A DNA stretch of 24,838 nt from positions 1 through 24,838 of the forward strand of contig JBMFRC010000031.1 of the NCBI GenBank assembly GCA_049968235.1. The letters are read 5' to 3'. Source of the DNA: Candidatus Hydrogenedens sp. (GTDB lineage: Bacteria; Hydrogenedentota; Hydrogenedentia; Hydrogenedentales; Hydrogenedentaceae). Below, piece by piece: positions 18,987 through 21,605 of this stretch (position 1 is its first letter; each line of letters starts with the position of its first letter). The notes below the pieces were generated by a model that was given only the letters and a program-made list of their open reading frames with translations, was not told where the DNA came from and searched no databases. The translations under genes and the position numbers were made by a program.

Positions 18987-19394
18987 TTGCACAAGGGCAT
19001 GCATCTTATTATCGATTGTCGGAATGTGTCGCGCGACCTATGCTTAAATGATAAGCTAGTGTTAAATGCGATGGCTCGTGCAGCAGAGAGAGCCGGCGCG
19101 ACTGTAATTTCACAAGTTCGTTACAAGTTTGGCAGTGATTCGCCCCCCGGATTTGCCGCCTTGGTTATGCTGGATGAAAGCCATTGCTCCGCTCATACCT
19201 ATGCGGATTTGGGACTCATTGCAATGGATATTTTCACCTGCGGGAAAACAGACCCTCGTGTCGTGTTTCGTTACATCCGTGAAGAATTGGATTTAGGCGA
19301 TGTTACGATTCGCGAATTGCCGAGGTTTTCTGTTCAGGAAGAAGATTCCTCCGCAATTACTAAAATTGAGTCCTTCGCAATGGTAGGACATTAA
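18987..19394 (+). CDS. speH: S-adenosylmethionine decarboxylase proenzyme (small pyruvoyl-dependent SpeH/SpeD type)
   Basis: About 130 aa; LDESHCSAHTYAD matches the SAMDC self-cleavage motif (E-S, Ser becomes pyruvoyl). TTG start 18987 is 8 nt from GGAGGG SD; alternative ATG at 18999. Confidence 0.8.
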   Translation: MHKGMHLIIDCRNVSRDLCLNDKLVLNAMARAAERAGATVISQVRYKFGSDSPPGFAALVMLDESHCSAHTYADLGLIAMDIFTCGKTDPRVVFRYIREELDLGDVTIRELPRFSVQEEDSSAITKIESFAMVGH

Positions 19395-19604
19395 TTATTT
19401 TTTTTCTAGGCTTAAGTGGATTATTCCATTTTCAGAATGGAGAAGTGTCTCTATTTTCATTTGAGATGGAATAAAAAATATATACACATAAGCAATGTAG
19501 TGGTGTGTCTGCCTTTATTCCTGGTAAATAAGTGTTTTCCAATAAAGGTATGTCATTCTAAATTATTTTTGTAAATTTAAGTCTTTCAAAGGAGAAAAAA
19601 AATA

Positions 19605-20681
19605 ATGAATCGCAAATTACATGATGGGCGACATGATGGGTTAATGCCTCTTGAAAGTTTAGACCTTTCTAAAGTCTATCGTTTCACTGATTTAATAAAA
19701 GCCATGCGAAAAACTTCTTTTGGTGGACGGACATTGGGGGAAGCCTTTGAAGTTTTATTGGAAATGTTTCGGGATGAAGATTGTACAGTTGTGTTGACAC
19801 TTTCCGGTGCAATGACCGTTGCAAAACAGGGAATGATTATCTGTGAAATGATAGACCGCGGTCTGGTTCAGGCAGTTATCGCAACCGGTGCATTAATTGC
19901 ACATGGTGTAACAGAAAGTATCGGTCTTACTCATTATGCCGTTAATCCGAATATTGATGATAAAGAACTATTTGAGAAAGGCTACAATCGTGTATATGAT
20001 ACCTTGGAGATGGAGGCAAATCTTAACGATGTATGTGAAGTAGTGGGACGAGTTCTGGATGAAGTTACACCGGAAGATGGTGTATGGTGTTCCCACCGTT
20101 TTTGTCGTGCGGTCGGTCAGGAATTAGAACGATTAAATCACGGGCCAGGGATATTAAGAAGTGCCTATCAGAAAAATGTGCCGGTATATATCCCCGCATT
20201 TACAGATAGCGAAATGGGTCTGGACTTCTCTACATGGGCAATGAAAAAAACTATCCAACAGAAACAAAACAAAAAATGGGACCCCGAAGAATTATTTCAA
20301 GCAGTTCCCAATTTTAACCCATTCCTGGACTTGCAACATTATGCTCGCTTAATTGGCAGGTCAAAACGGTTAGGTATTTTAACTATTGGAGGAGGTGTCC
20401 CACGTAATTGGGCTCAACAAGTCGGACCTTACTATGATATAACATCCGTTCGTTTGGATGTAGAGATACCACAACCTCGTTTCCAATATGGTGTTCGTAT
20501 TTGTCCGGAGCCTGTGCATTGGGGGGGATTGTCCGGTTGCACCTATTCCGAAGGCGTCAGTTGGGGTAAGTTTGTGCCTACCGAAGAAGGAGGGAGATAT
20601 GCAGAAGTCCTTGCAGACGCAACCATTATTTTACCTTTCCTGATGAAATGTGTGTTTGAGGAATTGGATAATGCTTCGTAA
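19605..20681 (+). CDS. Deoxyhypusine synthase family protein (divergent DHS-like; possible homospermidine synthase or related aminobutyl transferase)
   Basis: [23 protein letters not shown] aligns with human DHS [33 protein letters not shown] aligns with DHS [16 protein letters not shown] aligns with [15 protein letters not shown] SD. Confidence 0.7.
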   Translation: [358 protein letters not shown]

Positions 20682-20693
20682 GGGAAATAAGGA

Positions 20694-21605
20694 ATGAGTC
20701 GAAAAATAGAATTTATGAATGAGAAAGAAAACTTTCTGGCTCTGTCCAGAGAATTTTCTCATCCCAACACCGCAAAGGTCATTATCCTACCCATCCCTTT
20801 TGAGAAAACTTCCACTTTTGGAAAAGGTTCAAAAAGAGGACCTGAAGCCATTATTCATGCATCGCATGAAGTTGAATTGTACGATACTGTTTTAGGATTT
20901 GAACCGTATCGGACTTGTGGAGGTATTGCCACATTGACACCTTTGAAAGTCAAAGAGCATTCCGGTGAAAAATTAGCAAAAGTGCTGGAAGAGAAAGTTA
21001 ACTATTGGCTGGAACAGGATAAGTTTGTTATTACAATAGGAGGAGAGCATTCAAGTATCATCGGTTCGGTATATGCTCATACAAAGAAGTATAAACCCAT
21101 TACAGTAATTCAACTGGATGCTCATAGTGATTTGCGAAGTTCCTATCTGGGTGAAAAATGGAACCATGCTTGTGCTATGGCACGGATTTTAGACCGTCAT
21201 GACGGAAATTTAGTTCAGATTGGAATACGAAGTGAAGCCCCCGAAGAACCTGCTATTATTAAAACATTAGGGAACCGAATATCTACTTTTTATGCTCATA
21301 AAATACACAAAGAAGGAGATAAAATATTTGCAAAGATTTTAAATGAATTGTCTGAATATGTATATATAACTTTCGATTGTGATGTCTTTGATCCGAGTAT
21401 CATCCCATCAACAGGAACACCGGAACCGGGAGGGTTATATTGGGAATGGGTTAATCGTTTTTTTGAGATACTTTCCCGCCACAAAAAAATTGTAGGATTT
21501 GATGTAAGTGAATTGAGTCCTATCCGAAATTTACATTACCCACAGTTCACAATTGCAAAAATGATATATCGCCTTATTGGATATACCTTCCCCGCTAAGA
21601 AATAA
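20694..21605 (+). CDS. speB: Agmatinase/ureohydrolase (arginase family)
   Basis: Arginase-family metal-binding motifs GGEHS, DAHSD, SFDCDVFDPS, GTPEPGG; 12-bp gap after DHS-like gene (operon). Confidence 0.85.
   Translation: MSRKIEFMNEKENFLALSREFSHPNTAKVIILPIPFEKTSTFGKGSKRGPEAIIHASHEVELYDTVLGFEPYRTCGGIATLTPLKVKEHSGEKLAKVLEEKVNYWLEQDKFVITIGGEHSSIIGSVYAHTKKYKPITVIQLDAHSDLRSSYLGEKWNHACAMARILDRHDGNLVQIGIRSEAPEEPAIIKTLGNRISTFYAHKIHKEGDKIFAKILNELSEYVYITFDCDVFDPSIIPSTGTPEPGGLYWEWVNRFFEILSRHKKIVGFDVSELSPIRNLHYPQFTIAKMIYRLIGYTFPAKK

What the first reader, a model, noticed from the sequence alone, without database searches (positions are those of the whole stretch)
18987..21605. Polyamine module speH / divergent DHS-like / agmatinase, with the DHS-like protein apparently lacking the catalytic lysine
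Three consecutive plus-strand genes encode a pyruvoyl SAM decarboxylase, a deoxyhypusine-synthase-family protein and an arginase-family ureohydrolase with an intact metal site. The last two are 12 bp apart. DHS-like/agmatinase pairs are known from archaeal hypusination (agmatine route) and from DHS-like homospermidine synthases in bacteria, so this could be either pathway. By my alignment, the position of the catalytic Lys of canonical DHS (GGGVVKHH, Lys329 in human) is Arg here (GGGVPRNW). In addition the NAD-site TTAGGVEEDLIK block aligns with [12 protein letters not shown], meaning the acidic triad is replaced. An Arg cannot form the enzyme-imine intermediate. That would imply a non-canonical mechanism or an altered function, for example direct transfer as in HSS, action on agmatine-derived substrates, or a regulatory pseudoenzyme. 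No speE (aminopropyltransferase) gene is in the window to use the SpeH product.
Basis: partly seen in the sequence, partly recalled or inferred. Interest (0 to 1): 0.6.

Follow-up and report, generated by a model that had tools for sequence, protein, structure and literature searches.

The report
Agmatine-route homospermidine operon, catalytic lysine intact

Summary
The three plus-strand genes are real: an AdoMetDC-fold pyruvoyl decarboxylase, a deoxyhypusine-synthase (DHS) homologue and an arginase-family ureohydrolase 12 nt downstream. The headline claim is wrong. Human GGGVVKHH is residues 282-289 (Lys287/His288). The catalytic Lys329 lies in the SWGK motif, which the window protein keeps as W320-G321-K322. 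This Lys is present in every intact homologue examined. The Arg (R267) is real but replaces Lys287. It marks a large, deep clade (GGGVPRNW) found in Hydrogenedentota, Planctomycetota, Nitrospira, Acidobacteriota and Polyangiaceae.

The 'speH' lacks the Pro reported as invariant in true AdoMetDCs, which fits an arginine decarboxylase (SpeDA). That would explain why no speE is needed. In relatives the same DHS clade sits near an unrelated pyruvoyl arginine decarboxylase plus an arginase-family gene.

The arrangement matches published speDA-speY-speB clusters. There, SpeY couples two agmatines into N1,N9-bis(guanidino)homospermidine and a ureohydrolase converts that to homospermidine. No enzyme of this clade was tested here, and the protein scores far below NCBI's SpeY cut-off.

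Novelty is low: a new member of a known kind. A side observation is a conserved, unclassified leader element upstream of the first gene. Its structure is not proven.

The parts
18885..18944 (+). Conserved leader element upstream of the first gene: GCCG-A-CC-CCAAGC, a variable hairpin, then GCGUAAGG-CGGC. It is a candidate cis-regulatory RNA and is not proven.
   Evidence: A covariance model built from 8 leaders finds it upstream of speDA-like ORFs in 9 genome loci plus 4 metagenome contigs. There is no Rfam 15 match. The helices are almost invariant, so covariation says nothing either way.
18972..18989 (+). Shine-Dalgarno and start block AGGAGGGTTTATGAATTG. The TTG start is at 18987, and an out-of-frame ATG lies at 18982.
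   Evidence: The block is nearly invariant across Hydrogenedentota, Planctomycetaceae, Latescibacterota, Sumerlaeota and Desulfobulbaceae loci. In other taxa the residue at the NCBI-style Met5 start is K, R or Q, so TTG/GTG is the shared start.
18987..19394 (+). speDA-like gene: an AdoMetDC-fold pyruvoyl decarboxylase (135 aa), inferred to be an L-arginine decarboxylase. Ser65 is the pyruvoyl precursor and His70 and Cys85 are kept. Ala73 replaces the AdoMetDC Pro.
   Evidence: Pfam AdoMet_dc 4.3e-25. The alignment to T. maritima AdoMetDC 1tlu reads ESHltiHTWPE against ESHcsaHTYAD. All 120 of 120 homologues lack the Pro. The criterion comes from PMC10407285.
19605..20681 (+). speY-like DHS homologue (358 aa), inferred to be an agmatine-coupling (G44G/diagmatine) synthase. 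The catalytic Lys322 is at 20568-20570 and the clade-marking Arg267 at 20403-20405. Other key residues are His100, Leu206 and Leu309.
   Evidence: Pfam DS 2e-74.
20694..21605 (+). Arginase-family ureohydrolase (303 aa), agmatinase-like. It is inferred to hydrolyse the two guanidino groups of G44G to give homospermidine and urea.
   Evidence: TIGR01230 scores 207 bits against a cut-off of 174. The best solved relative is agmatine ureohydrolase 3pzl at 2e-38. The metal motifs are present. Its start lies 12 nt after the speY-like stop.

Best explanation
The three genes most likely form an arginine-to-homospermidine operon of a Candidatus Hydrogenedens MAG. None of the three enzyme activities was measured.

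- Step 1 (inferred): the AdoMetDC-fold pyruvoyl enzyme decarboxylates L-arginine to agmatine. It would be a SpeDA, not a SpeH/SpeD.
- Step 2 (inferred from homology, active-site residues and context): the DHS homologue uses bound NAD+ to oxidise one agmatine. It captures the 4-guanidinobutyl group as an imine on Lys322, transfers it to the amine of a second agmatine, and reduces the product with the NADH it made. The product is N1,N9-bis(guanidino)homospermidine, also called G44G, diagmatine or caldomycin.
- Step 3 (inferred): the agmatinase-family ureohydrolase removes both amidino groups as urea to give sym-homospermidine.

What is shown directly is narrower. The catalytic lysine is present. 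That Arg marks a large subfamily of bacterial DHS homologues.
For: 1. Catalytic residues are present.
- Profile and pairwise alignments put window W320-G321-K322 and E316 on human W327-G328-K329 and E323.
- These positions are invariant in a 30-sequence alignment reaching down to 30% identity.
- SWGK is present in 120 of 120 and 102 of 104 close homologues, and in all 86 fetched loci.
- Deeper representatives read SW[G/R/Y/H]K. The Lys is kept in every intact sequence.

2. The substrate pocket looks like SpeY rather than DHS.
- Human Asp243 and Asp316 bind the spermidine amines (PMC7226451). They are Leu206 and Leu309 here.
- T. thermophilus CdmS has Phe204 and Leu286 at these positions (PMC10981699).

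3. Genomic context points to agmatine.
- 19 of 86 related loci have the AdoMet_dc-like gene directly upstream. 30 of 86 have an arginase-family gene within 6 kb.
- In 32 loci, nearly all Nitrospira/Nitrospirales, the same DHS clade lies about 2.7 kb from a pyruvoyl arginine decarboxylase of an unrelated fold (PF01862, 2e-59), usually with an arginase-family gene next to it.

4. The speH-like protein fits a SpeDA.
- It keeps the Ser, His and Cys needed for processing and catalysis but has Ala at the Pro reported as invariant in true AdoMetDCs.
- The same holds in 120 of 120 homologues.
- No speE is on the contig.

5. The pathway is published.
- speDA-speY-speB clusters have been described, and all tested bacterial SpeYs make G44G from agmatine (PMC10407285; PMC13625781).

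6. Taxa fit, indirectly.
- Planctomycetaceae members of this clade have speDA directly upstream and no ureohydrolase nearby. That is the layout described for Gimesia maris.
- The only major polyamine of G. maris is sym-homospermidine (PMC4334474).
Against: - No member of this Arg267 clade is known to me to have been assayed. I could not obtain the sequences of the tested SpeYs from C. corticalis, Ca. Sericytochromatia, C. aerophila or W. algicola to see whether any belongs to it.
- The protein scores 171 bits against NCBIfam NF002699 (G44G synthase, cut-off 500). Sphingomonas and Trichormus SpeYs score 564 and 592. It is only about 25-30% identical to them.
- It forms a separate branch in an NJ tree.
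- It differs near the active site: K287R, and His at the Glu137 position.
- About half of the related loci show neither a decarboxylase nor a ureohydrolase within 6 kb.
- The absent Pro is a soft criterion. The source paper says SpeDA as a group is little diverged from AdoMetDC.
Confidence: 0.78

Rival explanations
1. The Arg267 clade is a functionally distinct DHS-like enzyme that still uses agmatine but makes a different product. Examples are coupling agmatine to another amine acceptor, or net oxidation to 4-guanidinobutanal that feeds an aldehyde dehydrogenase.
For: - It is a separate deep clade with its own signature: GGGVPRNW, His100 and two insertions.
- It falls below every NCBIfam equivalog cut-off.
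- In Nitrospira loci an aldehyde dehydrogenase gene lies between the DHS homologue and the decarboxylase/ureohydrolase pair.
Against: - The aldehyde dehydrogenase neighbour is confined to one lineage and may be inherited synteny.
- The imine-forming Lys and the hydrophobic 243/316 positions match CdmS.
- All seven tested bacterial DHS homologues, drawn from diverse phyla, make G44G.
- DHS-type enzymes recycle their NAD within one catalytic cycle, which argues against net oxidation.
Confidence: 0.1
2. The speH-like gene is a genuine AdoMet decarboxylase whose aminopropyltransferase partner lies elsewhere in the genome. The DHS homologue would then make homospermidine from spermidine and putrescine, as eukaryotic DHS and plant HSS do.
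For: - The protein passes the TIGR03330 AdoMetDC cut-off, 84.2 bits against 75.65.
- Only 24.8 kb of the genome is visible.
Against: - The Pro reported as invariant in AdoMetDC is absent in this protein and in 120 of 120 homologues.
- The acidic residues that bind the spermidine amines are replaced by Leu.
- Relatives pair this DHS clade with an unrelated arginine decarboxylase.
- Tested bacterial SpeYs need agmatine, not spermidine.
Confidence: 0.06
3. The DHS homologue modifies a protein, for example EF-P, through an agmatine-derived deoxyhypusine-like route. The ureohydrolase would finish the modification, as proposed for haloarchaeal aIF5A.
For: - The clade resembles archaeal-type DHS in the [8 protein letters not shown]..E..SWGK segment.
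- Its best solved relatives are archaeal DHS, at 7e-48.
- It is very strongly conserved, about 70% identity across phyla.
- Some deep members sit in archaeal-looking contexts.
Against: - No efp or aIF5A gene is nearby in any inspected locus.
- K-type SpeYs look similarly conserved across phyla by eye, so conservation does not discriminate.
- The decarboxylase and ureohydrolase partnership is exactly that of the small-molecule pathway.
Confidence: 0.04
4. One reading: the enzyme lacks the imine-forming lysine. It would therefore work by direct transfer without a covalent intermediate, or be a regulatory pseudoenzyme.
For: The only support is the K-to-R change in GGGVPRNW.
Against: That position is Lys287. 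Lys329 is conserved as K322.
Confidence: 0.01

Closest known systems
speDA-speY-speB homospermidine gene clusters (Capsulimonas corticalis, Ca. Sericytochromatia, Ca. Marinimicrobia and others; Li et al. 2023 PMC10407285, Li et al. 2026 PMC13625781)
   Same: The same three protein families occur in one cluster. There is no speE or canonical ADC/ODC nearby. The proposed chemistry is the same: arginine to agmatine to G44G to homospermidine.
   Different: The host phylum is Hydrogenedentota. The DHS homologue belongs to the GGGVPRNW (Arg267) clade. I could not check whether any experimentally tested SpeY is in that clade.
Thermus thermophilus caldomycin synthase CdmS (TTHA1570) with its ureohydrolase (Kobayashi et al. 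2024, PMC10981699)
   Same: It is a DHS fold that keeps the catalytic Lys (Lys299 there, K322 here). The Glu that binds the guanidino group is present (Glu293 there, E316 here). Hydrophobic residues replace human Asp243 and Asp316.
   Different: The sequence relation is low. The window protein scores 171 bits on NF002699, NCBI's model named for this enzyme activity, against a cut-off of 500. Whether CdmS has Lys or Arg at the human 287 position was not checked, because its sequence was not obtained. In Thermus the arginine decarboxylase is a PLP enzyme, not a pyruvoyl SpeDA.
Eukaryotic and archaeal deoxyhypusine synthase (human DHS, PDB 6XXJ/1RLZ; archaeal 8PUT, 7CMC)
   Same: The fold and the NAD-site glycines and aspartates are shared, as are the Trp-x-Lys catalytic motif and Glu323. 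His at the Glu137 position is shared with 8PUT.
   Different: Asp243 and Asp316 are lost, His288 becomes Asn and Lys287 becomes Arg. There are two insertions. The host is bacterial with no a/eIF5A substrate. All DHS equivalog cut-offs are missed.
Bacterial homospermidine synthase HSS (Blastochloris viridis, PDB 4TVB)
   Same: The end product is homospermidine, and NAD is used as a prosthetic group.
   Different: The fold is unrelated. HSS uses putrescine, not agmatine, and has no lysine-imine intermediate.

Membership tests
Deoxyhypusine synthase superfamily (Pfam PF01916) | Whole-protein match above the Pfam gathering score | tested here: met
   250.9 bits against a cut-off of 27, covering 286 of 288 profile positions.
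Deoxyhypusine synthase superfamily (Pfam PF01916) | Imine-forming lysine in the W-G-K motif (human Lys329), with Trp327 and Glu323 | tested here: met
   W320, K322 and E316 align to these residues. They are invariant in alignments A1 and A7.
Deoxyhypusine synthase superfamily (Pfam PF01916) | NAD-site residues: the GGG loop 282-284, Asp238 and Asp342 | tested here: met
   G262-G264, D201 and D338 are conserved.
Canonical protein-modifying DHS (NCBIfam TIGR00321, NF002006, NF002630) | Score above the equivalog cut-off | tested here: not met
   178.8 against 304, 227.9 against 434, and 183.1 against 364.
Canonical protein-modifying DHS (NCBIfam TIGR00321, NF002006, NF002630) | Spermidine-binding Asp243 and Asp316, and catalytic-base His288 | tested here: not met
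   These positions are Leu206, Leu309 and Asn268.
[quoted passage not shown] | Score above the equivalog cut-off of 500 bits | tested here: not met
   171.4 bits. Sphingomonas and Trichormus SpeY score 564 and 592.
[quoted passage not shown] | Hydrophobic residues at human positions 243 and 316, with the Glu and Lys retained, as in CdmS | tested here: met
   L206, L309, E316 and K322 here correspond to CdmS F204, L286, E293 and K299.
[quoted passage not shown] | Genomic partnership with an arginine decarboxylase and a G44G-hydrolysing enzyme | tested here: met
   This holds in the window and in relatives with two unrelated decarboxylase folds.
[quoted passage not shown] | Makes G44G from two agmatine molecules | not testable with these tools
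   This needs expression in E. coli lacking speB followed by HR-LCMS.
SpeDA (AdoMetDC-derived pyruvoyl L-arginine decarboxylase) | Processing and catalytic Ser, His and Cys retained (T. maritima S63, H68, C83) | tested here: met
   S65, H70 and C85 align to them.
SpeDA (AdoMetDC-derived pyruvoyl L-arginine decarboxylase) | Lacks the Pro that is invariant in bona fide AdoMetDC, and lacks the Gln/Thr/Phe/Tyr signature of the ornithine-specific SpeDC | tested here: met
   HTYAD replaces HTWPE, and 120 of 120 homologues agree. The criteria come from PMC10407285. Absence of the SpeDC signature was judged by eye against that paper's Fig. S5.
SpeDA (AdoMetDC-derived pyruvoyl L-arginine decarboxylase) | Decarboxylates L-arginine and not AdoMet, with no speE partner in the genome | not testable with these tools
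   Only the 24.8-kb contig is visible and it has no speE. An enzyme assay is needed.
Agmatinase family / diagmatine ureohydrolase (DUH) | Agmatinase equivalog score above cut-off and an intact binuclear-metal site | tested here: met
   TIGR01230 scores 207 against 174. GGEHS, DAHSD and DCDVFDP are present.
Agmatinase family / diagmatine ureohydrolase (DUH) | Acts on G44G but not on agmatine | not testable with these tools
   This rests on kinetics, as in PMC13625781 Table 4. No sequence marker is known to me.

The most novel reading that the evidence does not exclude
The GGGVPRNW (Arg267/His100) clade may be a functionally distinct branch of bacterial and archaeal DHS homologues. It could have a different acceptor or product than G44G, or a protein target. 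Separately, the conserved, Rfam-unclassified leader upstream of its speDA partner (window 18885-18944) may be a new riboswitch class. Such a riboswitch could sense a polyamine-pathway metabolite (agmatine, arginine or homospermidine) and control ribosome access through an anti-Shine-Dalgarno hairpin.
Probability: 0.1. Interest if true: 0.6.

Novelty: new member of a known kind. Interest (0 to 1): 0.2.

Why it matters
As posed, the finding would have meant a DHS-fold enzyme working without its covalent-catalysis lysine. That is not the case, so the main value is corrective.

Three modest points remain.
- NCBI named the first gene's product 'adenosylmethionine decarboxylase' (P0385), and DHS homologues of this clade carry names such as 'deoxyhypusine synthase family protein'. 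The evidence instead points to an arginine decarboxylase, a G44G synthase and a G44G ureohydrolase for homospermidine synthesis. The same mis-naming would affect hundreds of species' genomes: at least about 600 matches in the GTDB species set, of which the best 80 were checked and carry GGGVPRNW. These include Nitrospira, Planctomycetota, Acidobacteriota and Polyangiaceae.
- This large clade is not captured by the current NCBIfam G44G-synthase model. One biochemical test of a member, or a check of which clade the already tested SpeYs belong to, would extend the annotation.
- The conserved leader upstream of speDA is a cheap candidate to test for metabolite-responsive control of bacterial polyamine synthesis.

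Tried and rejected
- Validated SpeY sequences. I tried to learn whether an experimentally validated SpeY (C. corticalis, Ca. Sericytochromatia, C. aerophila, W. algicola, G. maris) carries Arg or Lys at position 287.
  - The 2026 paper has no supplement held. The 2023 supplement gives accessions only.
  - A homologue search seeded with a Planctomycetaceae member returned no named Gimesia entry.
  - Cluster look-ups gave almost no names.
  - The one GTDB scan returned only the best 80 of at least 596 loci.
  - This question stays unresolved.
- A literature search for EF-P-modifying bacterial DHS homologues found nothing relevant.
- One literature query was badly posed and wasted.
- Plasmid search. 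It gave K-type SpeY from Sphingomonas and Trichormus, useful as comparators, and haloarchaeal DHS.
- Leader RNA.
  - There is no Rfam hit.
  - The covariance model found no further instances in the other 77 sources searched.
  - A metagenome pattern scan added only 4 true instances among 80 loci. The rest were chance matches without a downstream speDA.
  - Pair counts show almost no variation, so the structure is not statistically supported.
  - MFE folding of the window leader is no better than shuffles, z = -0.29.
- Promoter and terminator scans were at chance level.
- Deep-branch contexts (P0215, P0250, P0145, P0228, P0239) gave no decarboxylase or ureohydrolase neighbours.
- Structure prediction was not run. 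Residue-level coordinates are not returned, and the sequence alignments to solved DHS structures are already unambiguous.
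Full report
**What is in the sequence**

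The window carries three consecutive plus-strand ORFs at 18987-19394 (135 aa), 19605-20681 (358 aa) and 20694-21605 (303 aa). The last two are separated by 12 nt.
- Pfam assigns them to AdoMet_dc (4.3e-25), DS/deoxyhypusine synthase (2e-74) and Arginase (8.1e-59).
- With NCBIfam, the third protein passes the agmatinase equivalog (207 bits against 174). The first just passes the class 1b AdoMetDC equivalog (84 against 76).
- The DHS homologue misses every equivalog cut-off. [quoted passage not shown]
- The arginase-family metal motifs are intact.
- The other genes are unrelated housekeeping and sugar-metabolism genes, and none is a spermidine synthase.
- The window is an entire 24,838-bp contig of a Candidatus Hydrogenedens MAG. 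A 100%-identical protein on a contig of exactly that length is in NCBI.

**The catalytic lysine**

That is a mis-numbering.
- In the 369-residue human sequence, GGGVVKHH is residues 282-289, so it holds Lys287 and His288. Lys329 is the Lys of S326-W327-G328-K329.
Its numbering is confirmed by the HMMER alignment to full-length chain 1rlz_A.
- It is also consistent with papers that name Trp327, Lys329 and His288 as active-site residues (PMC7226451; PMC10042821).
- A phmmer alignment to archaeal DHS 8put, a 30-sequence profile aligned to 8put, 7cmc and human DHS, and a MAFFT alignment all agree. Window E316, W320 and K322 (...SEGVSWGKF...) lie on human Glu323, Trp327 and Lys329.
- These three residues are invariant in alignments that reach 30% identity.
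- SWGK is present in 120 of 120 and 102 of 104 close homologues and in all 86 fetched loci.
- Deep representatives read SW[G/R/Y/H]K. The only sequences without the Lys are obviously frameshifted or truncated ORFs.

So the enzyme has its imine-forming lysine, and the pseudoenzyme and 'no covalent intermediate' ideas fall.

- R267 does align with human Lys287, and N268 with His288.
- Asn at the His288 position is also found in bona fide bacterial SpeY (GGGVPKNF) and in an archaeal-type homologue.
- The Arg is specific. All 120 top homologues read GGG[VA]PRNW. In a search of 50%-identity representatives the Arg persists down to about 30-36% identity, where Lys-types begin to appear.
- In an NJ tree the Arg-type sequences form one large clade, with a single Lys-type nested in it. 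That clade is separate both from NF002699-type SpeY and from archaeal-like Lys-types. This is a quick distance tree, not a rigorous phylogeny.
- The 'acidic triad' E136-E137-D138 reads A-H-G here, with His100 invariant. A solved archaeal DHS reads D-H-D and SpeYs read differently again. The triad is therefore not a family-defining feature.
- From memory only (Joe et al. 1997, not held in the library): Lys287 mutants of human DHS are impaired, but Lys287 is not the nucleophile.

**What the module does**

Two recent lines of work describe this gene set.
- Kobayashi et al. 2024 showed that the Thermus DHS homologue CdmS couples two agmatines into a bis-guanidino homospermidine, which a ureohydrolase then converts to homospermidine. 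CdmS keeps the catalytic Lys and replaces human Asp243 and Asp316 by Phe and Leu.
- Li et al. 2026 showed the same chemistry for SpeY homologues from diverse phyla. They also showed that SpeY-associated agmatinase homologues are specific for the bis-guanidino intermediate. Their examples include clusters of speDA, speY and speB.
- Li et al. 2023 showed that many class 1b AdoMetDC homologues found without speE are really arginine decarboxylases (SpeDA). They are most often clustered with speY. The main sequence difference is loss of a Pro that is invariant in true AdoMetDCs.

The window fits on each count.
- The decarboxylase keeps Ser65, His70 and Cys85 but reads HTYAD where T. maritima AdoMetDC reads HTWPE. 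So do 120 of 120 homologues.
- The DHS homologue has Leu206 and Leu309 at the Asp243 and Asp316 positions.
- The ureohydrolase follows it at 12 nt.

**Independent support from relatives**

A scan of one genome per GTDB species found at least 596 relatives. The best 80 come from Hydrogenedentota, Planctomycetaceae/Pirellulaceae, Latescibacterota, Acidobacteriota, Polyangiaceae (Sorangium, Polyangium, Minicystis) and Nitrospira.
- Across 86 loci, 19 have the AdoMet_dc-like gene directly upstream and 30 have an arginase-family gene within 6 kb.
- In 32 loci, nearly all Nitrospira/Nitrospirales, the DHS homologue lies about 2.7 kb from a pyruvoyl arginine decarboxylase of the unrelated PvlArgDC fold, usually followed by an arginase-family gene.
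- Two non-homologous arginine decarboxylases recruited to the same DHS clade is good evidence that its substrate is agmatine.
- Planctomycetaceae members have speDA upstream and no ureohydrolase nearby. That is the arrangement reported for Gimesia maris, whose only major polyamine is sym-homospermidine. I could not confirm that the G. maris protein itself is of the Arg type.

**Limits**

- About half of the related loci show neither partner within 6 kb.
- The clade is only about 25-30% identical to SpeYs of the NF002699 type.
- I could not establish whether any biochemically tested SpeY belongs to it.
- All three enzyme activities are inferred, not shown.
- Rivals that remain possible are a different agmatine-derived product, a true AdoMetDC with speE elsewhere, and a protein-modifying role. 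Together I give them about 0.2.

**Side observation**

Immediately upstream of the first gene, within an AT-rich intergenic region, lies a GC-rich block (window 18885-18944).
- Its core, GCCG-A-CC-CCAAGC ... GCGUAAGG-CGGC, recurs upstream of speDA-like ORFs in eight other Hydrogenedentota-type and Desulfobulbaceae genome loci and four metagenome contigs.
- The distal hairpin has at least three different sequences at the same place. Its C-rich strand or loop is complementary to the downstream Shine-Dalgarno sequence.
- There is no Rfam 15 match.
- The conserved helices hardly vary, so pair statistics neither support nor refute a structure. Single-sequence folding is unremarkable.
- The Shine-Dalgarno and start block AGGAGGGTTTATGA[AG]TTG is almost invariant across phyla and implies a TTG/GTG start at 18987. 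NCBI's 131-aa call starts four codons later.
- This is a lead, not a finding.

**Verdict**

The genes and the K-to-R substitution are real, but the substitution is at Lys287 and the catalytic Lys329 equivalent is intact. The locus is best read as a speDA / speY-like / diagmatine-ureohydrolase operon for agmatine-dependent homospermidine synthesis. It is a new member, in a not yet explicitly characterised subclade, of a pathway described in 2023-2026. Interest is low (0.2).

Noticed in passing
window 18885-18944 (+); also L003 7350-7407, L009 5288-5346, L010 5307-5365, L011 5371-5428, L013 5471-5532, L014 5495-5554, L016 106-166, L008 4484-4539, L119 4263-4323, L151 1744-1799, L103 251-305, L146 621-675: A conserved GC-rich leader element lies about 45 nt upstream of the speDA start: GCCG-N-CC-CCAAGC, a variable hairpin, then GCG[U/A]AAGG-CGGC. 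Its hairpin C-rich strand or loop is complementary to the Shine-Dalgarno sequence. There is no Rfam match. Covariation is uninformative because the helices are nearly invariant.
   Followed up: partly
window 18972-19001: The block AGGAGGGTTTATGA[AG]TTG is nearly invariant upstream of speDA-like genes across several phyla. An out-of-frame ATG lies 5 nt before the TTG/GTG start. The NCBI protein (131 aa) starts at the ATG at 18999, but in other taxa that codon is Lys, Arg or Gln, so the TTG at 18987 is the likely start.
   Followed up: partly
proteins P0123 (743 aa) and P0204 (759 aa), from the representative search: Two members of the Arg267 DHS clade carry an intein with an HNH endonuclease. 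The host DS match breaks at about window residue 309 and P0123 residue 321, near the GLSGC active-site segment.
   Followed up: no
proteins P0145, P0149, P0151, P0155, P0156, P0158, P0167, P0170, P0175, P0180, P0188, P0189, P0209 (about 480-510 aa); locus L214: A deep sub-branch has an N-terminal extension of about 170 aa with no Pfam match. Most read SWRK instead of SWGK (P0175 and P0180 read AWGK, P0167 TWRK; P0151 was not inspected), and the Lys is kept in all twelve inspected. The one context inspected (L214) looks archaeal: ATP-dependent DNA ligase and DUF483.
   Followed up: partly
Nitrospira/Nitrospirales loci, e.g. L075, L076, L083 (about 5990-11500): Synteny is conserved: the DHS homologue, a DsbA-like thioredoxin, an aldehyde dehydrogenase, a pyruvoyl arginine decarboxylase (PF01862), then an arginase-family gene. 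The aldehyde dehydrogenase could be functionally linked or just inherited gene order.
   Followed up: partly
window 19395-19604: A 210-nt AT-rich gap separates speDA from the DHS homologue. It contains short inverted repeats such as CCATTTTCAGAATGG. In several relatives the two genes are only about 30-40 nt apart.
   Followed up: no
window 5001-6000: This is the lowest-GC stretch of the contig (26% against about 39%). It largely coincides with the 5295-6037 intergenic gap between the divergently oriented thyX-like gene (4515-5294, minus strand) and penicillin-amidase-family gene (6038-8584, plus strand).
   Followed up: no
window 10706-13526 and 17121-18500, 21620-24035: There are two Fucose_iso_C-domain proteins (532 and 470 aa) and two GFO/IDH/MocA oxidoreductases, one with a Tat-like signal. 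A sugar ABC permease flanks the polyamine genes. These look like sugar-catabolic genes unrelated to the operon.
   Followed up: no
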